NCBI GenBank assembly: GCA_947644305.1
Contig: CANRYS010000020.1
Location: 23,456 to 55,455 of the forward strand
Length of the DNA stretch: 32,000 nucleotides
From: an uncultured Roseburia sp.
Lineage (GTDB): Bacteria > Bacillota > Clostridia > Lachnospirales > Lachnospiraceae
Direction: 5' to 3'
In this document: positions 20,788 through 32,000 of the stretch, in pieces
How the letters are laid out: every line of letters begins with the position of its first letter
How positions within the stretch are numbered: position 1 is the first letter of the stretch
Notes under the pieces: model-generated
The model's input: only the letters and a program-made list of their open reading frames with translations
Databases searched by the model: none
Told to the model about the DNA's origin: nothing
Position numbers and translations under genes: made by a program

Positions 20788-21492
20788 TCACCCTTCTTTC
20801 ATATTGGCTAGACATGCCTCGATTTCCCGGATCTTTCTCACAATTTCTTCCCGATCTTCCCGATTTGCAGAGGCAAACTGAGGATTCTCAAGAATACGTT
20901 CAAAGGTGTTTTTTTCTTTGTTCAAATAGCTCTGAAATACGGGATCTCTCCTCTGCGCCAAATATGTACCATACCGGAACTGCCACTCTGCCTCCGGTTT
21001 TTCTTCATCTTCTGCCTCGCGTCGCTCCGCCCGTATGGCAAAATAGTATTTACCATCCTCCAGACAGATCTTCTCCTGACAGATCGAAAACCCATGCTCC
21101 CAGAGGTAATGTCTCACGGCTCCGATATCCGACTGAGGCTGCAGGATCAGAGTACGAACCTGTTGAAGTACTGCCCTTCCCTCGGAAAGTATATGAATCA
21201 TAAGAGGGCCGCCCATACCCGCGATCATCAGCGTATCCACTTCTCCAGGAAGCAGCCTCTCTGTTCCGTTTCCCTGACGGCATTCAATCTGCCGCTCCAG
21301 ACCGGCCAGGCGCACATGTTCGATCGCCCTCTCAATAGGCCCCCGATTCACATCAGAAGCAATAACTCTTTCCGCGATTCCCTGCTGGACGAGCCAGATC
21401 GAAGCATACCCGTGATCGCATCCGATATCCGCAATTCTCGCTCCTCTTGGCACCAGTGATACATTCATCTTTAGACGTTCTGACAACTGCAT
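20788..21492 (-). CDS. trmK: tRNA (adenine(22)-N(1))-methyltransferase
   Basis: 234 aa. IADIGCDHGY SAM motif and DTLMIAGMGG. Lies immediately downstream of sigA, as in Bacillus yqfN. The start shares 1 nt with the sigA stop. Confidence 0.8.
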   Translation of the reverse strand: MQLSERLKMNVSLVPRGARIADIGCDHGYASIWLVQQGIAERVIASDVNRGPIERAIEHVRLAGLERQIECRQGNGTERLLPGEVDTLMIAGMGGPLMIHILSEGRAVLQQVRTLILQPQSDIGAVRHYLWEHGFSICQEKICLEDGKYYFAIRAERREAEDEEKPEAEWQFRYGTYLAQRRDPVFQSYLNKEKNTFERILENPQFASANREDREEIVRKIREIEACLANMKEG

Positions 21493-22634
21493 CAGTCCAA
21501 ATAATCCTTTAATTTTCTGCTTCGGCTCGGATGGCGGAGTTTGCGGAGCGCTTTGGCCTCGATCTGACGAATACGCTCTCTGGTGACATCAAACTCCTTG
21601 CCCACTTCCTCCAACGTCCTGGCGCGTCCGTCGTCCAACCCAAACCGGAGTCTGAGCACTTTTTGTTCTCTCTCTGTCAATGTATCCAATACCTCCGTAA
21701 GCTGTTCCTTTAACAGAGTAAAAGCTGCCGCCTCCGCCGGCACTGGTACATTGTCGTCCTGTATAAAATCTCCCAGATGGCTGTCTTCCTCTTCGCCAAT
21801 CGGCGTCTCCAGAGAAACCGGTTCTTGGGAAATCTTCTGAATCTCCCGTACTCGGTCCACCGGAAGCTGCATCTCCTTTGCAATCTCTTCTGGATAAGGT
21901 TCCCGTCCCAGTTCCTGTAAAAGCTGTCTCTGCACCCGAATCAGTTTATTGATGGTCTCCACCATATGCACCGGAATACGGATGGTACGCGCCTGGTCTG
22001 CGATGGCTCTGGTGATCGCCTGGCGAATCCACCAGGTGGCATAGGTACTGAATTTATAGCCCTTGCGGTAATCAAACTTTTCCACTGCCTTAATCAGACC
22101 AAGGTTGCCCTCCTGGATCAGATCCAGAAAAAGCATCCCCCGTCCCACATACCTCTTGGCAATGCTTACCACAAGACGCAGATTCGCCTCTGCAAGCCGC
22201 TTTTTCGAGTCAGCATCCCCTTCTTCCATCTTCTTCGCCAGCTCTACTTCCTCGTCAGCAGACAACAATGGCACCTTGCCGATCTCCTTCAAATACATGC
22301 GGACCGGATCCTCAATGCTGACGCCATCGGGAACAGAGAATTCAATATTTTCCAACTCCTCTTCCGTCGGCTCATCGTCTACATCAAGGATAATATCGTC
22401 GTCGGTATCACTGTCTGGAACCATTGCCACGATACCGTTTTGTTCAAGATAATCAAGAATCTTTTCGGTCTTATCACCGTCCAGATCAATTTCCTTAAAC
22501 TGGGCGTTGATATCACTAAATTCCAGGATCCCATTTTTTTTCTTCCCAAGCTCCACAAGTGTATTTAGTCCTTCTAAAAATAACGCTCGCTCGTCCACTG
22601 TATTCTTATTATCTTTCATGTCTTCCTCCTTCAT
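21492..22634 (-). CDS. sigA: RNA polymerase primary sigma factor
   Basis: Region 2 [30 protein letters not shown] and region 4.2 [30 protein letters not shown]. The sixth-codon ATG (22619) has the better SD (GGAGG-N5). Confidence 0.95.
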
Positions 22635-22644
22635 TCTATCGACA

Positions 22645-24414
22645 TCACTGTACCGGTAGTCTCAGACTCAGATGCTCCAGTTTCTTTTTCTCTGCAATCA
22701 ACGCCTGCAGTTGGGACAAATCTGTGATCTCCCTGCTCTGTTTTTCCAGACTCGCTTTCTTTAGTGTCTTTACTACTTCATTCAGCGCCTTTTCCCGCTC
22801 CGTGTGTTCTCTGACTTCCTTTACCTGGCGGTTGAACAGTCCCGCTACCACCGATTGTTCTTCCTTGCTGTCAAATCGGCTGATGATCGCCGCCGGCGAC
22901 ATGCTTCCTGTCTCTGCCTGCTCATACAGCAGTTTTGCCACTTCCCGGTATGGTTCATCCAGAAAATCTTCCGGCAGGATCGTCTCTTTGACAATGGGAT
23001 ATAAAGACAGGTCTTCGCTGATCCATGTCAGCAGAATTGCCTGAATCCGCCCAATGCCATCCTCTTTCCCGTTGTCTTTCTTTTTCTGTCTCTCACTCTT
23101 TATCTTTTCATATTGGATTCCCACTGCTGCCGCCGCATGATGCTTTACCAACTGTCTGAAATCTTCACTGCGAATCCCATATTCTCTGGAAAACGCCTCT
23201 ATATAATTATTTCTCTCTATTTCATTTTCAAACGTCAGGCATTTTTTTGCGGCCTCATTCATAAACTTTGTCTTTTCTTCGGGGTCCCCCATATCGTATT
23301 CTCTCTGCAAAATACCAATTTCATAGAAGAAACTGTTTTGCGCGGAATGAATACGGCTCTGGAACTCCTCTGCCGACAAACCTTTGATAAATTCGTCAGG
23401 ATCTTTATAAGGCTGCATGTCTATAACCCGCACCGTCAGTCCCGCCTCTTTCAACAAAGGAATTGCCCGGAGTGCCGCCTTGACGCCGGCACCATCACTG
23501 TCGTAGCAGAGATAGACGGTATCCGTATATCTTTTTAAAAGGCTGCTCTGTTGGCTGGTAAATGCTGTGCCAAGAGATGCCACTGCATTTGTAAATCCCG
23601 CCTGGTGAAGAGCAATCACGTCCATATACCCCTCACAGATGATCATGCCCTGGTCCTGCCTCCCGTGTACAAAATTCAAGCCATACAAATTCCGGCTCTT
23701 ATCAAAGACCATTGTCTCCGGCGAGTTCAAGTACTTCGGTTTTCCATCTCCCATCACCCGTCCGCCAAAGGCGATCACTTTTCCCGATCGATCCATAATG
23801 GGATACATAACCCGGTTCCAGAACTTATCATAAACGCCCTTTTTCTCATGAAAGGTAAACAATCCTGTCTGGTTTAATATAGTATCGTCAAAACCTTTCT
23901 TTTTCATGTATTGGTACAAATCATCGCTAAACTTGTCCGAATATCCTAGACCGAACCGGCGTATCGTTTCCTCGGAAAGTGCTCTTTGCAAAAGATATTT
24001 TTTTGCCTCTTCTCCCCGCCCAGAATTGAGTTTCGCGTAAAAATAATTGGCGGCCAGCTTGTAAATCTCCAGAATCCGCTCCCTCGTATTGCGCCGTCTC
24101 CGGTCCTCTTCGGAATTGCTTTTTTCTGGTAGCGCCATGCCGGCGCGGCCCGCCAGTTGTTCCAATGCTTCTGGAAATGTCAAATTCTCATATTCCATAA
24201 GAAAGGTAAAAACATTTCCACCTGCTCCACAGCCAAAGCAGTAATACATCTGCTTGCCTCCTGAAACCGAAAAAGAAGGTGTCTTTTCATTATGAAACGG
24301 ACATAGGCCTGTAAAATTGCTCCCGCTTTTTTTTAAATTGACATAGCCGGAAATCACATCCACAATATCATTTCTCTGACGGACTTCCTCGATAAACTCC
24401 TCACTATAATACAT
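22645..24414 (-). CDS. dnaG: DNA primase
   Basis: Zinc-binding [13 protein letters not shown]...[28 protein letters not shown]...CYDSDGAG. Confidence 0.95.
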
Positions 24415-24433
24415 CTGCCAGCCTGTCCTCCTG

Positions 24434-25444
24434 TCAATAAACCCTCCATGTCTTCGGTATCATCAGACTCTGGTAGGTGGATACGGCATACCGGTCTGTC
24501 ATACCGGCAATATAATCACACACCACACGCTCCACGGTCTCCCCCTGCTCCCATATCATTCTTGTGTATTCCTCAGGCAATTCTTCCATATGTTTTACAT
24601 AATACTCAAAAAGCTGTCCTATCATTCGTTCAGCTTTCCCCTCTTCTACCTTTGCCACAGAATTTACATACACATTGGCAAACATATATCGGCGGAGATG
24701 GAGCAGCGCCTCGTATTTTTCGTCGGACATAATGATGTCTTCTTTCCCCATGCTGTTGCTGACGATATCATGTATCAGTGTATTCAACCGCTCTCTTAGC
24801 GTGGCGCCAAGTACCTGGACACACCCGTCGGGAATATCCGTCTCTCGTATGATCCTTCCTCGTATGGCATCGTCGATATCTGAATTGACATAAGCGATCT
24901 TATCACAGAGCCTTACGATCTTTCCCTCCAGTGTCGATGGGCTGCCGGAAGTAGAATGATTCAGTATCCCATCCCGGACCTCTTTCGTAAGATTTAAGCC
25001 CCTTCCATTCTTCTCCAACCTTTCCACCACCCGCACACTTTGGAGCTGATGATGAAATCCATCGGAACAAATCCGGTTCAGCATTCGTTCTCCAGCATGT
25101 CCAAAGGGCGTATGTCCGAGATCATGTCCCAGCGCCACTGCCTCTGCCAGATCCTCATTCAGACGCAGCGCCTTGGCGATGGTTCTCGCATTCTGTGAAA
25201 CCTCCAGCGTATGGGTCAGTCTGGTGCGGTAATGGTCTCCCTCTGGCGCCAAAAAAACCTGAGTCTTTCCTTTCAGCCTGCGAAATGCCTTGGAGTGCAG
25301 GATCCGGTCCCGGTCCCTCTGATAGACTGGACGCAGATCACAGGGTTCCTCTGGATGATCTCTTCCCAGAGATTGGTCGCTGAATGCAGCAAAGGGACTG
25401 AATATATCATGCTCTCTCTGCTCAAACTCTTCCCGTAATGTCAT
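24434..25444 (-). CDS. dgt: Deoxyguanosinetriphosphate triphosphohydrolase-like HD-domain protein
   Basis: 336 aa. RTRLTHTLEVSQ and GHDLGHTPFGHAGE HD motifs. Lies directly upstream of dnaG. Confidence 0.85.
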   Translation of the reverse strand: MTLREEFEQREHDIFSPFAAFSDQSLGRDHPEEPCDLRPVYQRDRDRILHSKAFRRLKGKTQVFLAPEGDHYRTRLTHTLEVSQNARTIAKALRLNEDLAEAVALGHDLGHTPFGHAGERMLNRICSDGFHHQLQSVRVVERLEKNGRGLNLTKEVRDGILNHSTSGSPSTLEGKIVRLCDKIAYVNSDIDDAIRGRIIRETDIPDGCVQVLGATLRERLNTLIHDIVSNSMGKEDIIMSDEKYEALLHLRRYMFANVYVNSVAKVEEGKAERMIGQLFEYYVKHMEELPEEYTRMIWEQGETVERVVCDYIAGMTDRYAVSTYQSLMIPKTWRVY

Positions 25445-25648
25445 CTATGTACCCCTTTTTTTCTTAAAAAAACACCTACACTTTATTATTTCAACACGAA
25501 AGAGGAATTTCCTTTTTTCTTATTGATTATTTTTTCACGATGTTGTACACTTACTTTTAGATAGATAAACGGCACGTTTTTGGACCTTATTGACCATGTG
25601 TCAGCACACTAGATAACAGATACATTATATTCAGAAGGAGTATTACAT

Positions 25649-25906
25649 ATGGCAAGAACTGGAAAAAATACATGGGCACTTTTTTTACTGCTTTTGGCAG
25701 GCATCGTTTTGGGAAGTTTTATCGCCCAGATGACAGCCGGGATTTCTGGCCTCTCCTGGCTTTCCTTCGGGAAAACCTTCGGATTGGATAACCCCATTAC
25801 ATTAAATCTTGGAGTTCTCGTTCTCACTTTTGGCCTCAAGATCAAATTTACCATCGCCAGCATTATCGGAATTGTGATCGCCGCTATTATTTATCGTTTC
25901 CTATAG
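25649..25906 (+). CDS. DUF4321 domain-containing small membrane protein
   Basis: 85 aa, two hydrophobic helices, pattern ...LSFGKTFGLDNPITLNLGVLVLTFGLKIKF... AAGGAG SD 8 nt before the ATG. The only convincing plus-strand gene. Confidence 0.65.
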   Translation: MARTGKNTWALFLLLLAGIVLGSFIAQMTAGISGLSWLSFGKTFGLDNPITLNLGVLVLTFGLKIKFTIASIIGIVIAAIIYRFL

Positions 25907-26036
25907 TAAAAGTATCAACCTTTATTGTAAGATCACCGTACTCGAAGACTTTTTTGCTTTATGGGTTGATTTTCAAGAAACACCTTTCATTTACACCTTT
26001 GCTCAATCTCCTGCGAAAACAAGGAATTCTTACCTT

Positions 26037-26360
26037 TTATAGAACAGATGAAACACCTACCCAGGCAATCAGCAATAGTGACCATCCAAACAGTAAGTTT
26101 TGCATGTGGGTACACCATTCCAGAGAAGTCGATTTGTCGAAAGCATATTGACATTCAACTTCAGCTTCTCCAATTATAAATCCAACACCCATATATGAAA
26201 CAGAGCATTCTTCATAATTTACCAGTACAAAAGTAAAGCCATCAAGTGTATGCGAAGCAGAAGTTAAACATTTACATCTCTGTGCTTTTTCTACATCTCT
26301 AATAGTAGTATGTAATATATAGAATATTTTGATGTAACTTAAATTCCACACTGTGTACAT
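26037..26360 (-). CDS. Hypothetical 107-aa protein with a hydrophobic C-terminus (possibly the frameshifted remainder of a gene starting at 26380)
   Basis: The ATG at 26358-26360 has no SD. A perfect GGAGGG+ATG at 26378-26380 opens a different frame that stops after 13 codons. Low-GC region. Confidence 0.25.
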   Translation of the reverse strand: MYTVWNLSYIKIFYILHTTIRDVEKAQRCKCLTSASHTLDGFTFVLVNYEECSVSYMGVGFIIGEAEVECQYAFDKSTSLEWCTHMQNLLFGWSLLLIAWVGVSSVL

Positions 26361-26424
26361 ATTGCAGGTACTGATGACATAATACTAATCCCTCCATAAA
26401 ATATCAACATCTATTATTTAGATT

Positions 26425-26650
26425 TTATGAATTCATAAGCAAAATCTTTATTTGCTGATTAATCGCATCTTTTAACTCATCAGAAAATTCAGAGCCATTT
26501 TCAAAATATTGATCTTTAATACTAATAAAGTTCTCTGTATGAGTTCCATCTGGTTTTTCAGTATCATGACTTTGTCCACTTAATCCATGTAAAAAGCAAA
26601 ACCATCAACCTTTTTAGAACATAATCAAAATTGATGGTTTTCATATCCAT
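26425..26650 (-). pseudogene. Frameshifted gene remnant
   Basis: MDMKTINFDYVLKRLMVLLF... runs into a T5 run near 26590. It continues in another frame as LHGLSGQSHDTEKPDGTHTENFISIKDQYFENGSEFSDELKDAINQQIKILLMNS*. Neither piece alone looks complete. Confidence 0.3.
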
Positions 26651-27230
26651 TACTTTCTTTCTACTTGTATCAGGGCTTATGGTAATATTGTCAGTGCTCC
26701 ATTGTGCACCATCTAGTGCACCATTTTTCAAAAACCAATATGAATCTATATGGAAATATATCAGAGTAACAAAGCCACACAAGCCAGTATTCAGGGGATT
26801 TTATGGAATTACGGAAAAATTTATGAAACCGGCTCGCAAATTACGATTCCGAGCCGCATAACATTTCTTACCTTTTCAGAAACGCCGTATTTCCATGGGT
26901 TTCCTCCTTTCTCTTTATTTTTATCAATTTTTGTGCGAGCTTTTTACACACAGCATACTTTTGATCTATTTTCAAATTATCTTTTGTTCTCACGTTCACA
27001 AAATGCAAACAACAAAAGAGATTGACACCATGATAAAGTGTACCATAAAAGGGTTCAAAAGTAAACGGTAGAAATCAATCACAGTACGGAAATCACTCTA
27101 TACTATTTTTAATTTTAACTTTTTGAAAATTACTTCTTAAATAATTTCCAATCCACCTATGTGGGATGTTCTTTAAATCCCTTTTGTCTCTAATTGGAGT
27201 ATTAATCAAATCCTTATTGTACTACTATCT

Positions 27231-27253
27231 AAAACGGTTCTTATTACCGTTTT
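27231..27253 (-). terminator. Hairpin AAAACGGU-N7-ACCGUUUU directly after the lipoprotein gene
   Basis: Perfect 8-bp palindromic stem starting 9 nt after the TAG. The U run is part of the 3' arm. Confidence 0.4.
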
Positions 27254-27262
27254 AGCTGTAAT

Positions 27263-28294
27263 CTATTTAATATTTATGCATTTTATAGAATCGGATGTGA
27301 AGTATCCCCATCCTCCTAACACACCATTAAAATTATAGCCCTTTTTCATATTTCCGCTTCTTATGCTTTTCAGATAAGTTCCATCCAAATCCAACACGCA
27401 AAAATTATCTTTCTTTTCAGTATCAGACCATTTAATGCAATAAATTTTATTATTTTGAATGCAGAATTCTGATACACCGGTACTTAATAATGTTGTATCC
27501 AAATTGTAAATATCGGTTTTATATAATCTTCCATCATCCACATCCAAATAATACACATCTTTTTCCTTCAGAGACACCCTGTCCATTCTTCCACTCATCT
27601 TTTTAAAAGTAGCTAATTTTTGAACTTCTCTACCACCTTCTCCAATATCCAATTGGAATAAATCAACATCATCATCTTCTACTGTTAATTCCCCTAAATC
27701 CATACAATATATTTTTTTATTATAGATTTCAAACCAAATATTCTCTTTATCAAACAACAATTTAACATTTTTTCCATCCATATCCATATTAAAAATTCCT
27801 GTTGCTCCTTCCTTGCTATACTTAGAAAAATATATATTATTACCGTACACCCACATATCTTCAATTCTTGTCTCATATATTCTTTCAAAGCAAGATCCAT
27901 CTATTTTCAACTTACATATATTATATTTATAAACATCTTGTTTTGTTTCAGTAAGAGCAAAAATAATCCAATTACCACTTACATTTATATTTGAGATATA
28001 ACCTGCCTTATGTTCATAAAGAATCTGCTGATTATCCCCTTTTTCACTACACTTATTCAACGTCCCTCTCCCGTTCATATTTATGGCAAATATTATCTCA
28101 TTTCCTGCCATACCAACTTTTCTATTACTATACAATAAACTTGCATTACCCACAGAATAATCACAAAATTCTCCTGAAGAGAGATCTTCTGTTGCTATTA
28201 TTTGATTATTGGAAATATCATTTTTTACCACACAACCAGTAAGAATTAAAGCAAGCATTGTATTAAATCCAATTATGACTTTGATTTTGAACAT
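27263..28294 (-). CDS. Lipoprotein with a DUF5050-like beta-propeller domain; candidate immunity protein for the upstream RHS payload
   Basis: 343 aa. Signal peptide with lipobox LILTGC (Cys21). Repeated blades of the type GNWIIF / LKIDGS..ERI / GNNIYF / MDMDGKNVKLL / NKKIYC / KDVYYL / NNKIYC / LDLDGTYLK. AAGGAGG SD overlaps the RHS stop codon. About 30% G+C. Confidence 0.75.
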   Translation of the reverse strand: MFKIKVIIGFNTMLALILTGCVVKNDISNNQIIATEDLSSGEFCDYSVGNASLLYSNRKVGMAGNEIIFAINMNGRGTLNKCSEKGDNQQILYEHKAGYISNINVSGNWIIFALTETKQDVYKYNICKLKIDGSCFERIYETRIEDMWVYGNNIYFSKYSKEGATGIFNMDMDGKNVKLLFDKENIWFEIYNKKIYCMDLGELTVEDDDVDLFQLDIGEGGREVQKLATFKKMSGRMDRVSLKEKDVYYLDVDDGRLYKTDIYNLDTTLLSTGVSEFCIQNNKIYCIKWSDTEKKDNFCVLDLDGTYLKSIRSGNMKKGYNFNGVLGGWGYFTSDSIKCINIK

Positions 28295-28305
28295 ATTTGC
28301 CCTCC

Positions 28306-31300
28306 TTATTTCTTATCTTTTTTATACTTTATACCATTTATTATTGCCTGTCTCTTTCCCTTAGACTTAATATCTTCTACTGTCCATGGGTATTCTACTT
28401 TTTTATTAAATATGTATACATAAAATTTATCACCTTTTGCTCCAAAATAGCTTTTCTTCCCATCTCCCCCAAGATTTTTTAATAATTTAGAAGAGCCTTC
28501 CCCACTATTGTTACCAGTAGTATCACTTGGAGTGCCAGAATTATAATCAGCAACAATAGCAAATGAATATGATTTTACTTTCTTACCTTTCTTTTTTACA
28601 ACTAAACATACCCTTCCTAGTTTTGCCGTATCATTTGTTACTATATATGGTATCTTACTAGCATTAACATATGAATTCTGATCTTTATCATCTCCTCCTG
28701 GACGTTTTAGACTAGTTGCCGAAACATAATATTGTACAGCTCTCCCCTTTTTATCAATTTCATCACGAACAATCGGATTTCCCTCTCTATCAGTCACAAG
28801 TGCCCACCAATTTCCCGGTTTCCCCGCATTTCCAAGCTTATCTAATGGTTTTGCATAATTTTTCTTTCCCTTATTTTCTCCACTTTGCACTTTTTCAGGT
28901 GCATAAGCATGTGGAGATCCATCAAAATCAACAGTAAATCCCGAATATTTCATAAAAACATACTTATACCCACTTGGATCCCAGGTATTCACCCCATCGT
29001 TCCCACAGTACGTATACAGATGCAGGCTCAGTGGATCATCCTCTTTCCCAGTATAGGTATCCCTCGTCAGAAACCTCCCCACATTGGGCTGGTAGTACCT
29101 CGCCCTTAGGTAGATCTCCCCCGTCTCCTTATCATAGTACTCCCCACAGTAACGGAAGGGGTTATCATCCTTACTGTCCGGCTTTACTTCATTCCCAAAA
29201 GAATCATACTCATAAGTTCTAACAACCTTACCGCTCTCATCCGTCAGCTGCACTACATTTCCATGGGGATCCGTCACATAATACTTCTTCTCGGTATTAT
29301 TCCCCTTATCCGTATAAACTAAATCGTTTCCACGAATGTATCTGTTTTTTACTTTGCCGCCCTCAGACAGCTCCAGCACCAGCTGGTCGCCGTCCCAGAC
29401 AAAGACCGTCTTTTCCCCGTTCACTGTTTTGCTCGTGCGAAGCCCCTCGGCATCATACGTAAAGCTTACTTTATAGTTCTTTGTAAGCGTCTGGGTAAGC
29501 TGGTTCAGAGCATTGTAATGGTTCACCACATTTTCATTCAGGCGGTTGTCCCCCAGGGTCACATCGATATCGACGTAAGCGCTGTCCTTTTTGTCACTGG
29601 GGATCTCATAGCGGTTGATTGTCGCCAGCTGGTTTCCGTTCTTATCATTTTTATAGATGACAACGGAATCCTCCTCCGTGTCGGTATTCAACGTATCGGT
29701 GCGGAGCAGCTCGTCGTTTTTGTTGTATCTGTAGGCAGTTACTTTATTTCCAACCCTCATCTCTTTCCGGTTGTTGCTGCTGTCATAGGTGTAGGAAATG
29801 TCCTCACTGCCGGTTTTCGTTTCTTTCTGAATCCGTCCTAAAAGGTCATAGATGTAGGCAGCAGTCTTTGTGGACTTCTTTCCTTCTTTATCCTGGATCG
29901 TGGCAGTTTCCCTGGATTTCTGTCCATTGGCAAGATATTCGGAATGGTACTCCGAGACCACCCCGGCGCTGCCCGTCTGGTTTTTTTCTGACGTCAGACG
30001 GTTCTGGTAATCGTAGGTGTACATCGTGGTCAGGTTATTCCCCGGTACGGTTCTCTCCGCCAGGTTCCCATCCGTATCGTAAGAGTATGCCACAACCTGG
30101 CTGCCCTTCCCATCGGTAACAGAGGTGAGTTTCGATTCCCCATCATAAGTATAATGCAGGGAAAGTTTTGTGTCATCCCCCACCTTTACGGAAAAGGTAG
30201 ATTTATTTCCGGTGCTGTCATAAGTGTAATGTTTGACCACATCCTTATGTTTCATCAGTTTTGTGGTTTCCTTTGTAACCTGACCGGAAGCATCGTCATA
30301 GGCAAAGATGGTGCCGTCCTGCTCCGCCACATCTCCGTAGGCATTGTAGGTATAGGTATGTTTCGTTTCTTTCCCTGTCTTTTTTTCCTGCCCCTTCTGT
30401 GAAGGGGCGGCCACCATTTCCGTCAGACGATTCTGGTAATCATAGGTGTTTTTCTGGATGTTGCCATTCTTGTCTACGGTTTTCGTTAAGTTGCTGTTGA
30501 TATCATAGGTATAGGTTTCTCTTCTGCCTTCCGGGTCAGTAAAAGCCACCAGACGATTTTTCCCATCGTATTCGTACCTGGTTTCAGCAACGGTATCAGA
30601 TTTCTTTTTTCCACTGACCACAACAGCATATGTTTTGCCGGCATAAGTAAAGGTGTCTTCCTGCCCTTTTCCACTCTCCGTATCATCGGAGGTACTTTCC
30701 CCATCCGCATAATTTACAGCATCCGCCACCTCCGACACCGTCAGTGTCAGCGGGCTGGTCATGCCGGTAAACTGACGCACCTTATTTCCCTGGACATCAT
30801 AGACATACTGGACGTAATGCGCCTTTTTATCTTCCAGGCAGCTTTTTACCATGACAAGGTTGCCGCGCTTATCATAAGTATACTCGGTTCTGGCGGTCCT
30901 GTCATTATCGATCTGTTCCTCTTTTTGTGTCACGTTTCCCGTATTATCGTACTCTGTCCTGATTTTCTGGTATTCAACATTGCTATTCTTCTTTTCCCGA
31001 GGAATCTCTGACTGGATCATCCGGCCGAGAATGTCGTACTCATACTTTGTGGCTACATTTTCTTTTGTCCCCCTGGGCGTGTATTCTTTTGTGACCTGAC
31101 CCTGCTCATTATAATCGGTCTTAACGATCCGGGACTGCCAGCCACTCTCCCCCTCCTTCCGGCTCTTCGTCTCCATCTGGCTCACGTTCCCATTGTCATC
31201 ATAGGTGGAGAGTTTTTCTGTTTCATAGGCAGGAAGCCACTTTCCGTCCTGCTGTTTTCTGATGACTGTGTTTTCTTTGGTGGTTCTGCCAAAGTCGTCG

Positions 31301-32000
31301 GCTTCATAGGTCGTCACCGTTTCTATTCTGTTCTTTCCCCGGATGGCAGTACTTGTCCGGGATAAGATGTTCCCTTCCGCATCGGTTACAGTTTTTGTGA
31401 TATTTTCCCTTAGAACCGCATCGTTGAACTGGTCATAATACCCCTCTGCATCTGCCTCCGGCTGGTACTTCGCGGGATTCAGGGTTTTGCTGTAGCTGGT
31501 GGAGATGGTCTGTGCCTCATCTTCTTCCCCGGTTACTTCTGTTTCATTCTTGCTAAAACTCCATGACGTGCAGTGGGCGGCATCCAGTTCCCCGTTGCTG
31601 AATTGGGCACTGCCTATCTCATTGCCCAGGTTATCATAGAAATGCTTGCTGCCGCTCAGAATCTCCTTCCCTTTTCCAGTAATATAAAAGTTGGGGACGG
31701 TTTCTCCATTTTCATTGACAATGAACCTCTTTTCATCCGGTTCAAAGGGAAAGGTCCGCTCTTCTAACAGCCGGGCCGTCTCCTCTTTTTCCGTTTCGCT
31801 GCCGGTACTGTCGGGATCTTCCCCGTTTTCTCCATCCTCTGCTTCACTGCCATACTCATAGATACTTTCGGTCCAGGTGCCGGCCGCCTCGTCTTTGCTG
31901 ATGATCGTATTGCCAAAAGCATCCTGTATCGCAATGGATACACGCCCAAAATCGTCCACTGTCATGGTTTTCAGTCCGTCAGCAGACCGGTATTCCTTTT
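28306..32000 (-). CDS. RHS/YD-repeat polymorphic toxin, 3' portion (5' end lies beyond the window)
   Basis: The frame is open from 32000 (..KEYRSADGLKTMTVDDFGRV..), so the listed Met is internal. Dozens of YD-type repeats (YEYDILGR, YTYDKRGNL, YEYDGKNRL, YTYDINSNL, YDYQNRLT, YSYDTDGNL, FTYDAEGLR, YEYDSFGNE). Canonical core terminus FRYCGEYYDKETGEIYLRARYYQPNVGRFLTRDTYTG...LHLYTYCGNDGVNTWDPSGY. Confidence 0.92.
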   Translation of the reverse strand, partial: KEYRSADGLKTMTVDDFGRVSIAIQDAFGNTIISKDEAAGTWTESIYEYGSEAEDGENGEDPDSTGSETEKEETARLLEERTFPFEPDEKRFIVNENGETVPNFYITGKGKEILSGSKHFYDNLGNEIGSAQFSNGELDAAHCTSWSFSKNETEVTGEEDEAQTISTSYSKTLNPAKYQPEADAEGYYDQFNDAVLRENITKTVTDAEGNILSRTSTAIRGKNRIETVTTYEADDFGRTTKENTVIRKQQDGKWLPAYETEKLSTYDDNGNVSQMETKSRKEGESGWQSRIVKTDYNEQGQVTKEYTPRGTKENVATKYEYDILGRMIQSEIPREKKNSNVEYQKIRTEYDNTGNVTQKEEQIDNDRTARTEYTYDKRGNLVMVKSCLEDKKAHYVQYVYDVQGNKVRQFTGMTSPLTLTVSEVADAVNYADGESTSDDTESGKGQEDTFTYAGKTYAVVVSGKKKSDTVAETRYEYDGKNRLVAFTDPEGRRETYTYDINSNLTKTVDKNGNIQKNTYDYQNRLTEMVAAPSQKGQEKKTGKETKHTYTYNAYGDVAEQDGTIFAYDDASGQVTKETTKLMKHKDVVKHYTYDSTGNKSTFSVKVGDDTKLSLHYTYDGESKLTSVTDGKGSQVVAYSYDTDGNLAERTVPGNNLTTMYTYDYQNRLTSEKNQTGSAGVVSEYHSEYLANGQKSRETATIQDKEGKKSTKTAAYIYDLLGRIQKETKTGSEDISYTYDSSNNRKEMRVGNKVTAYRYNKNDELLRTDTLNTDTEEDSVVIYKNDKNGNQLATINRYEIPSDKKDSAYVDIDVTLGDNRLNENVVNHYNALNQLTQTLTKNYKVSFTYDAEGLRTSKTVNGEKTVFVWDGDQLVLELSEGGKVKNRYIRGNDLVYTDKGNNTEKKYYVTDPHGNVVQLTDESGKVVRTYEYDSFGNEVKPDSKDDNPFRYCGEYYDKETGEIYLRARYYQPNVGRFLTRDTYTGKEDDPLSLHLYTYCGNDGVNTWDPSGYKYVFMKYSGFTVDFDGSPHAYAPEKVQSGENKGKKNYAKPLDKLGNAGKPGNWWALVTDREGNPIVRDEIDKKGRAVQYYVSATSLKRPGGDDKDQNSYVNASKIPYIVTNDTAKLGRVCLVVKKKGKKVKSYSFAIVADYNSGTPSDTTGNNSGEGSSKLLKNLGGDGKKSYFGAKGDKFYVYIFNKKVEYPWTVEDIKSKGKRQAIINGIKYKKDKK
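28309..28965 (-). other. C-terminal payload domain of the RHS protein (219 aa, Lys-rich, GH75 chitosanase-like by motif order)
   Basis: Begins right after WDPSGY. Motifs: TVDFDGSPHAY, SKIPYIVTN, FAIVADYNSG...GNNSGEGSSKLLKNLG. About 28% G+C, against about 53% in the repeat core (hand counts on single 60-nt lines). Confidence 0.55.

What the first reader, a model, noticed from the sequence alone, without database searches (positions are those of the whole stretch)
27263..28305. Surface-anchored DUF5050-like beta-propeller lipoprotein in the immunity position of an RHS toxin
The gene starts 11 nt after the RHS stop, its SD (AAGGAGG) overlaps that stop, and it shares the payload's low G+C (about 30%). 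That is the standard arrangement for a cognate immunity gene. Immunity proteins of Gram-positive RHS/LXG toxins are usually small and cytoplasmic. This one has a lipobox (LILTGC) and a ~320-aa propeller-type domain, so it should sit on the outer face of the membrane. That placement implies the payload acts outside the cytoplasm, on the wall or membrane surface. DUF5050 has no assigned function as far as I know, so an immunity/inhibitor role would be new.
Basis: partly seen in the sequence, partly recalled or inferred. Interest (0 to 1): 0.65.

Follow-up and report, generated by a model that had tools for sequence, protein, structure and literature searches.

The report
Propeller lipoprotein immunity for RHS wall-toxin
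A surface-anchored seven-bladed propeller lipoprotein sits directly behind an RHS toxin whose tip looks like a cell-wall-cutting chitosanase, and it travels with that tip in other strains, so it is most likely the producer's protective immunity protein: a new family in a familiar role.

Summary
Window 27263..28294 (-) encodes a 343-aa protein with a canonical lipobox (LILTG|C21), a roughly 36-aa disordered tether and a 7-bladed DUF5050/PF16472 propeller. It starts 11 nt after the stop of an RHS gene, the SD overlaps that stop, and its G+C is 29.6%, against 33% for the tip and 48% for the RHS core.

The RHS tip is a GH75 chitosanase-like domain. It matches V-Csn by sequence (E 9e-10) and by fold (TM 0.70), and all four conserved acidic residues are kept. 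Its relatives are fused to GH25, CHAP, PG_binding, YkuD and SLH modules, which points to the cell wall.

Tip and lipoprotein move as one cassette:
- In sister strains the same pair is an orphan module behind an RHS with a different tip.
- In four further diverged lineages (59-75% identical lipoproteins), a 54-84% identical tip lies directly upstream: 9-11 nt in intact copies, 71 nt in one frameshifted copy.
- An orthologous RHS with a different GH75 tip is followed by a different lipoprotein.
- Tip-less copies sit in low-GC islands of other immunity-type lipoprotein genes.

The immunity reading is therefore well supported by comparative genomics. Binding and neutralisation remain untested.

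Lipoprotein inhibitors of wall-hydrolase effectors are already known (X-Tfi, Tsi1, EatI, TilA). This is a new family pair, not a new principle.

The parts
29038..32000 (-). RHS/YD-repeat shell (partial; the gene runs off the window end)
   Evidence: PF05593 RHS_repeat E 3e-37, TIGR01643 and TIGR03696 Rhs_assc_core. About 81% aa identity to the RHS of L001, and clearly orthologous to the 2052-aa RHS of L020, which has a Sec signal peptide.
29772..29772 (-). Upstream boundary of the mobile RHS C-terminal module. From here downstream the window is 99.2% identical to the orphan module of L001-L005. Upstream it is only about 78% identical to their main RHS.
   Evidence: blastn: window_rc 2229.. = L001 6879... 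Orphan ORF of 484 aa in L001/2/3/5.
28966..29037 (-). End-of-core motif DPLSLHLYTYCGNDGVNTWDPSGY (the DPxx...DPxG pair that marks RHS self-cleavage and the tip boundary)
   Evidence: Read in the translation. It lies at the end of TIGR03696. G+C drops here. That cleavage happens here follows from established knowledge of RHS proteins and was not tested.
28309..28965 (-). RHS tip (219 aa): GH75 chitosanase-like glycoside hydrolase domain, pI 9.7
   Evidence: PDB V-Csn 7TVM E 9e-10. AF2 pLDDT 86, Foldseek 7TVP/7TVM TM 0.70, E 1e-12. D13, D15, D140 and E156 correspond to V-Csn D34, D36, D148 and E157 (PMC9485262). Homologues carry PF07335.
28301..28308 (-). RHS stop codon TAA (28306-28308) overlapped by the Shine-Dalgarno AAGGAGG (28301-28307) of the lipoprotein gene
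   Evidence: Read directly. The same TAAGGAG...ATG junction is present in L099, L104 and L014.
28235..28294 (-). Signal peptide of the lipoprotein (aa 1-20, MFKIKVIIGFNTMLALILTG)
   Evidence: PS51257-type pattern match. Conserved in the family.
28232..28234 (-). Cys21, the predicted lipidated +1 residue
   Evidence: Lipobox L-T-G-C. Conserved as LTGC or NGC in 8 of 10 homologues.
28124..28231 (-). Flexible tether (aa 22-57)
   Evidence: pLDDT below 50 for residues 1-57 in the AF2 model.
27266..28123 (-). Seven-bladed DUF5050 (PF16472, now called LRP1-like_beta_prop) beta-propeller, pI about 5.1 for the mature protein
   Evidence: Pfam E 5e-22. AF2 gives 27 strands in 7 blades. Foldseek top hit 3S25, a 7-bladed propeller from Eubacterium rectale, E 8e-11. 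The family profile also hits 3S25 by sequence, E 4e-8.
27229..27255 (-). 10-bp hairpin 10 nt after the lipoprotein stop (TAG, 27263-27265); a possible operon end
   Evidence: RNA fold -15 kcal/mol, z -3.1. There is no proper U-tract and the terminator scan did not call it, so the evidence is weak.

Best explanation
The gene encodes the cognate immunity protein of the GH75 tip of the RHS toxin.

Proposed sequence of events:
1. The RHS protein is exported by Sec. This is inferred from the orthologue's signal peptide.
2. Its YD-repeat shell encloses the 219-aa basic tip, which is released at the DPxG boundary. This is inferred from what is known of RHS proteins.
3. The tip is an inverting endo-glycosidase of the GH75 (chitosanase) fold. 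It cuts a glucosamine-containing glycan in the Gram-positive envelope, most plausibly peptidoglycan glycan strands, possibly N-deacetylated ones. This is inferred.
4. The producer and its kin make the 343-aa protein, which is lipidated at Cys21. It is held on the outer face of the membrane by a roughly 36-residue tether.
5. Its acidic seven-bladed propeller binds the tip 1:1 and blocks the active-site cleft. Other lipoprotein inhibitors of wall-hydrolase effectors work this way. This step is inferred and was not tested.

Shown here:
- the anatomy of the gene and its product;
- the translational coupling to the RHS gene;
- GH75 homology of the tip with intact catalytic residues;
- the behaviour of tip plus lipoprotein as one cassette;
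- co-occurrence of the two across diverged lineages;
- orphan copies of the lipoprotein gene.
For: Coupling:
- 11-nt gap, with the SD overlapping the RHS stop.
- The same TAAGGAG..ATG junction, 9-11 nt, in L099/L100, L104/L105, L014 and L097.

Cassette behaviour:
- In L001, L002, L003 and L005 the identical lipoprotein follows a 484-aa orphan RHS C-terminal fragment carrying the same tip. That fragment lies downstream of a main RHS with a Tse3/DUF1402-like tip and its own 90-aa TM protein and 200-aa lipoprotein.
- In the window the same module is fused to the full RHS.

Co-occurrence:
- Lipoprotein clusters at 100, 75, 66, 66 and 59% identity each have the tip immediately upstream, at 99, 54-84, 72-76, 71 and 71% identity.
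- Pairwise tip and lipoprotein identities correlate, r = 0.77.

Specificity:
- The orthologous RHS in L020 carries a 44%-identical GH75 tip and is followed by a different lipoprotein.
- 148 loci with free-standing GH75 genes have no member of this lipoprotein family.

Orphan immunity pattern:
- L007 is a 6-kb low-GC island. It holds a 55%-identical copy, two 3' fragments of the gene, and homologues of the L020 lipoprotein and of the L014 192-aa protein. It holds no toxin.

Topology matches the target:
- The tip is GH75 with all four conserved acidic residues.
- GH75 relatives are fused to GH25, CHAP, PG_binding_1, YkuD_2 and SLH.
- The lipobox is conserved.

Other:
- Shared low G+C of tip and lipoprotein against the RHS core.
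- Complementary charge: pI 9.7 against 5.1.
Against: - No direct evidence of binding or neutralisation.
- Four of the ten homologue clusters (P0002, P0007, P0009, P0010) have no tip upstream. One, P0008, lacks the signal peptide and follows a different ORF. This fits orphan immunity genes, but it also fits a function independent of the toxin.
- At 343 aa the protein is large for an immunity protein.
- Another DUF5050 propeller, TsgL, is described as a core component of a T7SS variant and not as an immunity protein (PMC11217815).
- The tip's substrate is unknown. Characterised GH75 enzymes cut chitosan, not peptidoglycan (PMC9485262).
- The correlation of divergence rests on 5 related pairs and could reflect co-inheritance alone.
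Confidence: 0.75

Rival explanations
1. The propeller lipoprotein is an accessory factor for the toxin and not its inhibitor. It could be a surface dock, a maturation or release factor, or a secretion helper specific to this tip.
For: A DUF5050 propeller (TsgL) is listed as a core component of the T7SSg secretion system (PMC11217815). Propellers are common scaffolds in Tc/RHS export modules (PMC3482391). Tight coupling and co-variation with the tip would also be expected for a tip-specific chaperone.
Against: Copies persist without any toxin, among other immunity-type genes (L007, L009). That is typical of immunity genes and pointless for a helper. Sister tips on the same RHS scaffold are followed by unrelated lipoproteins, whereas export helpers normally go with the conserved N-terminal part. 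The orthologous RHS has an ordinary Sec signal peptide.
Confidence: 0.08
2. The lipoprotein does give immunity, but not by binding the toxin. It would bind, shield or modify the target glycan near the membrane, or sequester cleavage products.
For: Propellers of this general fold resemble glycan-binding and glycoside-hydrolase propellers in the Foldseek list, for example BACOVA_03493 and BACINT_00347. The tether would place it in the inner wall zone.
Against: Its sequence diverges in step with the tip, and a different GH75 tip has a different partner. This fits protein-protein specificity better than a common substrate. No catalytic motif or family beyond DUF5050 was detected.
Confidence: 0.08
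3. It is an unrelated surface lipoprotein that hitch-hikes on the low-GC cassette. The GH75 tip targets non-bacterial chitosan (fungal or dietary) and needs no immunity.
For: Characterised GH75 enzymes are chitosanases (PMC9485262). Free-standing GH75 genes have no such neighbour. Several lipoprotein homologues occur without the tip.
Against: The 9-11-nt coupling is conserved across lineages that have diverged to 59-75% identity. All three tips seen on this RHS scaffold are followed by lipoprotein genes. GH75 relatives are fused to peptidoglycan-binding and peptidoglycan-cleaving modules.
Confidence: 0.07

Closest known systems
X-Tfe(XAC2609)/X-Tfi(XAC2610) of the Xanthomonas citri T4SS, together with Tse1/Tsi1 of the Pseudomonas aeruginosa T6SS and the lysozyme inhibitor PliI
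   Same: A peptidoglycan-hydrolase effector is neutralised by an extracytoplasmic inhibitor. X-Tfi has a lipobox. [quoted passage not shown]
   Different: Those are Gram-negative periplasmic proteins with partial or fragmented propellers. They show no sequence relation to this protein (no PDB sequence hits). Their enzymes are lysozyme-like or amidase, not GH75. Delivery is by T4SS or T6SS, not by a Sec-exported RHS. Here the propeller is a complete 7-bladed DUF5050 fold.
Envelope-acting toxins with membrane or lipoprotein immunity proteins in Gram-positive bacteria and mycobacteria: TelC/TipC, TslA/TilA (DUF576 lipoproteins) and EatA/EatI
   Same: The toxin acts outside the cytoplasm, so the immunity protein is anchored at the outer face of the membrane. 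EatI is a lipoprotein that blocks a cell-wall glycoside hydrolase 1:1 with an inhibitory hairpin (PMC6193138, PMC10730906, PMC13444075).
   Different: Those toxins are T7SS substrates (LXG-type or ESX-4), not RHS proteins. Their targets are lipid II, lipids or arabinogalactan. Their immunity folds differ (EatI is a beta-sandwich; TilA is DUF576).
RHS and other polymorphic toxin cassettes with orphan toxin-immunity modules (for example WapA/WapI of Bacillus subtilis and the Rhs orphans of Salmonella; from my own knowledge, plus PMC3482391)
   Same: A YD-repeat shell, a DPxG boundary, a variable low-GC tip, the immunity gene immediately downstream, and an orphan C-terminal module that can recombine into the main gene. 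All of these are seen here.
   Different: Classical RHS tips are nucleases, deaminases or ADP-ribosyltransferases with small cytoplasmic immunity proteins. The 2012 census noted no beta-propeller immunity proteins and only one lipoprotein immunity family.
GH75 chitosanases (V-Csn, PDB 7TVL-7TVP; fungal Csn)
   Same: The fold (TM 0.70) and the four conserved acidic residues and glycines (PMC9485262).
   Different: Here the domain is the C-terminal payload of a polymorphic toxin. It has a 7-residue insertion between the catalytic Asp and Glu and a lysine-rich tail. The Pfam model PF07335 does not detect it. Its substrate is untested.
DUF5050 proteins of unknown or other role: EUBREC_1955 (PDB 3S25) and TsgL of T7SSg
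   Same: The same Pfam family and the same 7-bladed propeller.
   Different: 3S25 has no assigned function. TsgL is described as a secretion-system component. Neither is reported next to a toxin tip.

Membership tests
DUF5050 / PF16472 (LRP1-like_beta_prop) | Scores above the Pfam gathering threshold | tested here: met
   78.8 bits against a cut-off of 27, E 5.1e-22, residues 64-317.
DUF5050 / PF16472 (LRP1-like_beta_prop) | Seven-bladed beta-propeller fold | tested here: met
   AF2 model with 27 strands in 7 blades, pLDDT 76 overall and above 80 in most of the propeller. Best Foldseek hit is 3S25, E 8e-11. The family profile hits 3S25 by sequence, E 4e-8.
Bacterial lipoprotein (SPase II substrate) | Positively charged N-region, hydrophobic core, and a lipobox [LVI][ASTVI][GAS]C with the Cys within the first 35 residues | tested here: met
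   MFKIK-VIIGFNTMLALI-LTG|C21 matches a PS51257-type pattern. Conserved in homologues.
Bacterial lipoprotein (SPase II substrate) | Actual lipidation and surface location | not testable with these tools
   Needs fractionation, globomycin sensitivity or mass spectrometry.
RHS polymorphic toxin | YD/RHS repeats and the RHS-associated core domain, ending in the DPxG boundary and followed by a variable tip | tested here: met
   PF05593 E 3e-37, TIGR01643, TIGR03696. DPLSL...DPSGY read. Tips differ between the window, the L001 main gene and L020, on an 81%-identical core for L001.
RHS polymorphic toxin | N-terminal export determinant | tested here: inconclusive
   The N-terminus lies outside the window. 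The orthologous 2052-aa RHS in L020 starts with a Sec-type signal peptide.
GH75 glycoside hydrolase (the tip) | Match to Pfam PF07335 | tested here: not met
   No Pfam hit even at E 10. However, 25 of its 34 homologues carry PF07335, and phmmer hits V-Csn at E 9e-10.
GH75 glycoside hydrolase (the tip) | The universally conserved positions of GH75: four acidic residues and two glycines | tested here: met
   D13, D15, D140 and E156 plus G16 and G155 align with V-Csn D34, D36, D148 and E157 and are invariant or nearly invariant in alignments A1 and A4. The definition comes from PMC9485262.
GH75 glycoside hydrolase (the tip) | GH75 two-domain (DPBB) fold | tested here: met
   AF2 pLDDT 86. Foldseek 7TVP/7TVM TM 0.70, rmsd 3.3 A, E 1e-12. 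The next hits are other DPBB proteins at E 2e-3 or weaker.
GH75 glycoside hydrolase (the tip) | Endo-chitosanase activity | not testable with these tools
   An enzyme assay is needed. The natural substrate may be peptidoglycan and not chitosan.
Cognate immunity protein of a polymorphic toxin | Encoded immediately downstream of the toxin tip, on the same strand, in one operon | tested here: met
   11-nt gap with the SD in the stop codon. Conserved in the related loci with an intact tip.
Cognate immunity protein of a polymorphic toxin | Varies with the tip and not with the locus or the conserved toxin body; moves with the tip in orphan modules | tested here: met
   Orphan against fused arrangement. 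A different tip has a different downstream gene. Parallel divergence.
Cognate immunity protein of a polymorphic toxin | Binds and neutralises its toxin and protects cells | not testable with these tools
Experiments are needed.
Tsi1 / X-Tfi / PliI-type peptidoglycan-hydrolase inhibitors | Sequence or close structural relation to those inhibitors, and an inhibitory loop in the active site | tested here: not met
   No sequence match to any PDB chain of those proteins. They do not appear among the top 50 Foldseek hits. Loop insertion was not tested. The resemblance is functional and topological only.

The most novel reading that the evidence does not exclude
DUF5050 propeller lipoproteins would be a previously unrecognised immunity family, the first complete beta-propeller immunity protein. 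They would neutralise a new class of antibacterial toxins: GH75 'chitosanase' domains that cut the N-deacetylated (glucosamine-rich, lysozyme-resistant) peptidoglycan of gut Firmicutes. These toxins would be delivered by Sec-exported RHS proteins without any dedicated secretion machine. By extension, many bacterial 'GH75 chitosanases' fused to GH25, CHAP or PG-binding modules would really be peptidoglycan hydrolases.
Probability: 0.3. Interest if true: 0.62.

Novelty: new member of a known kind. Interest (0 to 1): 0.42.

Why it matters
It gives a first, testable function to one clade of a domain of unknown function: DUF5050, which is represented by an orphan structural-genomics structure, 3S25.

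It adds GH75 to the list of payloads used in bacterial warfare.

It suggests that bacterial GH75 enzymes annotated as chitosanases may act on cell walls. If the substrate is N-deacetylated peptidoglycan, that would show how gut Firmicutes attack walls that resist lysozyme.

The locus also shows RHS tip switching caught in both states, fused and orphan, in natural gut populations. A separate island of orphan lipoprotein immunity genes extends the idea of acquired interbacterial defence to Gram-positive gut bacteria.

The scope is limited. The lipoprotein clade is very small (11 clusters among 5.8 billion), and the principle of lipoprotein inhibitors of wall hydrolases is already established.

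Tried and rejected
- Pfam on the isolated tip found nothing. The GH75 assignment came from the PDB search, from homologues and from the fold.
- NCBIfam on the lipoprotein gave only noise.
- A profile search with the lipoprotein family added just one weak hit, so the clade is tiny.
- Reverse co-occurrence across 80 GTDB loci and 68 JGI metagenome loci with GH75 genes found none with this lipoprotein family. All but one were free-standing secreted GH75 enzymes or short fusions, mostly of soil or environmental bacteria (Acidobacteriota, Myxococcota, Bacteroidota). The scans therefore test specificity and not pairing. Only L020 was an RHS.
- tblastn of the tip against phage records and of the lipoprotein against plasmids gave no match.
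- The 1.3-kb low-GC stretch downstream (25950-27262) has no similarity to any fetched locus and no Rfam family.
- The promoter scan was no better than shuffled sequence, and the scanner called no minus-strand terminator.
- I considered and rejected a chance lipobox, because it is conserved in the family.
- I considered and rejected a mis-called start, because the SD spacing and the N-terminus are conserved.
- I considered and rejected the idea that the lipoprotein belongs to the chromosomal site and not to the tip. In L001-L005 it follows the orphan tip, while the main tip has its own partners.
Full report
**1. The observation**

The minus strand of window 27263..28294 holds a 343-aa ORF.

Directly upstream on the same strand is a long ORF that runs off the window end (28306..>32000). 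It carries RHS/YD repeats (PF05593 E 3e-37, TIGR01643) and the RHS-associated core domain (TIGR03696).

Read on the minus strand, the junction is ...AAA TAA GGAGGGCAAAT ATG. The gap is 11 nt, and the Shine-Dalgarno AAGGAGG borrows the last two bases of the RHS stop codon.

G+C values (profile):
- lipoprotein gene: 29.6%
- last 660 nt of the RHS gene: 33.3%
- RHS core: 48.1%
- whole window: 43.9%

The N-terminus MFKIKVIIGFNTMLALILTG|C21 fits the lipoprotein signal rule. Pfam gives DUF5050/PF16472 at E 5e-22, well above threshold. Newer Pfam releases call this family LRP1-like_beta_prop. Every element of the finding is therefore real.

One correction: the folded domain is about 286 aa, not about 320. 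It is preceded by a roughly 36-residue disordered tether.

**2. The lipoprotein**

An AlphaFold2 model built on the ten-member family alignment has pLDDT 76. Residues 1-57 are disordered. Residues 58-343 are all-beta, with 27 strands arranged as seven four-stranded blades.

The best structural match is 3S25, a seven-bladed propeller of unknown function from Eubacterium rectale (Foldseek E 8e-11). LRP/YWTD-type propellers follow. A profile of the family also finds 3S25 by sequence (E 4e-8).

The clade is very small. Only 10-11 clusters turn up among 5.8 billion, by single-sequence and by profile search, and almost all come from Logan, ENA or JGI metagenome assemblies. The lipobox is conserved in eight of the ten members. 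The other two are N-terminally truncated or different.

**3. The payload**

The 219 residues after the DPSGY boundary have no Pfam hit. They do match the solved GH75 chitosanase V-Csn (7TVM, E 9e-10). Of their 34 database homologues, 25 carry PF07335.

The V-Csn paper states that four acidic residues and two glycines are the only universally conserved GH75 positions. All of them are kept here: D13, D15, D140 and E156 correspond to V-Csn D34, D36, D148 and E157 (PMC9485262).

The AF2 model of the tip (pLDDT 86) superposes on V-Csn with TM 0.70 and E 1e-12. Nothing else comes close.

An exhaustive HMMER search found only 508 relatives in 1.84 billion representatives. Several of the nearest are fused to other modules:
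- GH25 muramidase
- CHAP
- PG_binding_1
- YkuD L,D-transpeptidase
- SLH

That company points to the bacterial cell wall as the place of action, and not to free chitosan. This is an inference, and the substrate is untested.

The tip is strongly basic (pI 9.7). The mature lipoprotein is acidic (pI 5.1).

**4. Do the two belong together?**

This was the key test, and several independent lines agree.

(a) Cassette mobility.
- The identical lipoprotein occurs on at least 21 contigs.
- In L001, L002, L003 and L005 it follows a 484-aa orphan RHS C-terminal fragment with the same tip (99% identity).
- That fragment lies downstream of a full RHS whose own tip is Tse3/DUF1402 lysozyme-like. This main tip is followed by its own 90-aa membrane protein and 200-aa lipoprotein.
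- In the window, the very same module is the 3' end of the full-length RHS. It is 99.2% identical from window position 29772 downstream, while the core upstream is only about 78% identical in DNA and 81% in protein.
- So tip and lipoprotein move as one unit between an orphan and an expressed position. This is the classical behaviour of RHS toxin-immunity modules.

(b) Conserved pairing in diverged lineages.
- Lipoprotein clusters at 75, 66, 66 and 59% identity (P0003, P0004, P0005, P0006) each have the same tip family immediately upstream, at 54-84, 72-76, 71 and 71% identity.
- The gap is 9-11 nt with the same TAAGGAG...ATG junction in L097, L014, L099/L100 and L104/L105. The exception is L096, a frameshifted copy, where the gap is 71 nt.
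- In L014/L015 and L099-L101 further RHS fragments follow downstream; L104 has only a weak 21-residue RHS match at its contig end.
- Pairwise identities of tips and lipoproteins correlate (r = 0.77, ten non-independent comparisons).

(c) A different tip has a different partner.
- L020, from a mouse-gut Eubacteriaceae MAG, carries the orthologous 2052-aa RHS with a Sec signal peptide.
- Its GH75 tip is only 44% identical to the window's.
- It is followed by an unrelated 374-aa lipoprotein with an LVGC lipobox and a weak FG-GAP signal.

(d) Orphan immunity pattern.
- Copies without a tip exist: P0002/L009, P0007/L007-8, P0009/L010-11 and P0010/L012-13.
- L007 is a 6-kb island at 30-33% G+C. It holds the 55% copy and two 3' fragments of the gene.
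- It also holds a homologue of the L020 lipoprotein (30% identity, E 6e-34) and a homologue of the 192-aa gene that follows the lipoprotein in L014 (55% identity). Several more small lipoprotein genes are present, and there is no toxin.

(e) Specificity.
- None of the 148 loci with free-standing GH75 genes, from GTDB genomes and JGI metagenomes, contains this lipoprotein family.

**5. Mechanism**

The best-supported reading is a cognate toxin-immunity pair acting outside the cytoplasm.

- The RHS protein is exported by Sec. This is inferred from the orthologue.
- Its shell encloses and later releases the GH75 tip at the DPxG boundary. This follows from established RHS biology.
- The tip cleaves a glucosamine-containing envelope glycan. 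Peptidoglycan, perhaps N-deacetylated, is the leading candidate. This is inferred.
- The lipoprotein, tethered to the outer leaflet, binds the tip and blocks its cleft. This is inferred by analogy.

I could not test binding.

Rival readings are listed separately with lower confidence: a tip-specific helper, substrate shielding, and a hitch-hiking surface protein with a chitosan-directed tip. The orphan copies in immunity-gene islands, and the switch of partner with the tip, count most strongly against them.

**6. Comparison with what is known**

The 2012 census of polymorphic toxins noted that beta-propellers had not been found among immunity proteins. It also noted that only one immunity family was a lipoprotein (PMC3482391).

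Since then, extracytoplasmic immunity proteins for envelope-acting effectors have become well established:
- Tsi1, a fragmented propeller, against the amidase Tse1 (PMC3391265).
- X-Tfi(XAC2610), a lipoprotein with propeller-like topology, against a lysozyme-like T4SS effector (PMC10933484).
- TipC against TelC (PMC6193138).
- The DUF576 lipoproteins TilA against the lipase TslA (PMC10730906).
- The lipoprotein EatI, which plugs the active site of the arabinogalactan hydrolase EatA (PMC13444075).

'Chitosanase-like' domains have been listed among T6SS WHIX effector domains by HHpred (PMC12135965).

A full-text search for DUF5050 found four papers, three of them listed and none of these about immunity. 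One describes a DUF5050 propeller, TsgL, as a T7SSg component.

So the principle is known. What is new is the pairing of these two families, a complete 7-bladed propeller in the immunity role, and the RHS/Sec/Gram-positive gut setting.

**7. Verdict**

- Biochemical proof is lacking.
- Novelty: a new member of a known kind.
- Interest is moderate (0.42). It offers a clean, testable functional hypothesis for a DUF and a new toxin payload, but in a very small clade and within an established paradigm.

Noticed in passing
L001 2-6894 (also L002, L003, L005), compared with window 29772-32000: Sister strains carry a main RHS with a different tip, Tse3/DUF1402 lysozyme-like. It is followed by a 90-aa membrane protein and a 200-aa lipoprotein (VSGC lipobox), and then by the orphan module that is fused to the RHS in the window. 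The natural population thus holds both states of an RHS tip switch. The orphan ORF start overlaps the stop of the 200-aa gene (ATGA).
   Followed up: partly
L007 1-6300 (JGI 3300035512) and L008: A low-GC (30-33%) island of small lipoprotein and membrane-protein genes without any toxin. It includes a 55% copy of the propeller lipoprotein, two extra 3' fragments of that gene, a homologue of the L020 immunity-position lipoprotein and a homologue of the L014 192-aa gene. It looks like an orphan immunity-gene cluster in a Gram-positive gut bacterium.
   Followed up: partly
L020 451-7866 (Eubacteriaceae bacterium MGBC000156, CAJTFB010000009.1): A complete orthologous RHS (2052 aa) with a Sec signal peptide and a second, canonical GH75 tip (KIDADGSPRAY). 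It is followed by an unrelated 374-aa lipoprotein with a weak FG-GAP signal, which is a second candidate GH75 immunity family.
   Followed up: partly
Proteins P0047, P0090, P0095, P0193, P0053, P0055, P0029, P0034: Bacterial GH75 domains are fused to GH25 muramidase, CHAP, PG_binding_1, YkuD_2 and SLH modules. This suggests that many bacterial 'chitosanases' of this family act on peptidoglycan or the cell wall.
   Followed up: partly
window 25950-27262: About 1.3 kb of low-GC (32%) sequence lies between the lipoprotein gene and the DUF4321 gene. It has only short, unconvincing ORFs, no similarity to any fetched locus and no Rfam family. It may be decayed cassette remnants.
   Followed up: partly
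window 27229-27255 (-): A 10-bp hairpin (CUAAAACGGU/ACCGUUUUAG) lies 10 nt after the lipoprotein stop, z-score -3.1, without a proper U-tract. It may mark the operon end.
   Followed up: partly
L010 1440-6576: Two DUF5050-like genes (a 370-aa lipoprotein and the 273-aa P0009) flank a SIR2_2-STAND NTPase gene of 847 aa in a low-GC patch, which is a defence-island-like context.
   Followed up: no
L012 136-4896: The most distant family member (P0010, 34% identity) sits between an Acyl_transf_3 gene and a BlaI/MecI-type repressor. A 622-aa protein that looks membrane-bound from its N-terminal sequence follows (possibly BlaR1-like, not tested). There is no toxin here, so the setting is different and possibly a cell-wall stress context.
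   Followed up: no
L107 63-1758: P0008 lacks the signal peptide and has a different N-terminus. Upstream are an RHS core-end fragment and an unrelated 166-aa membrane-type ORF. This is probably a recombined or decayed cassette.
   Followed up: no
window 20788-25906: The flanking genes are ordinary chromosomal housekeeping genes: DUF4321, an HD-domain dGTPase-like protein, DnaG primase, RpoD and TrmK (Pfam labels from the identical contigs). The RHS locus is therefore chromosomal, next to the dnaG-rpoD operon.
   Followed up: partly
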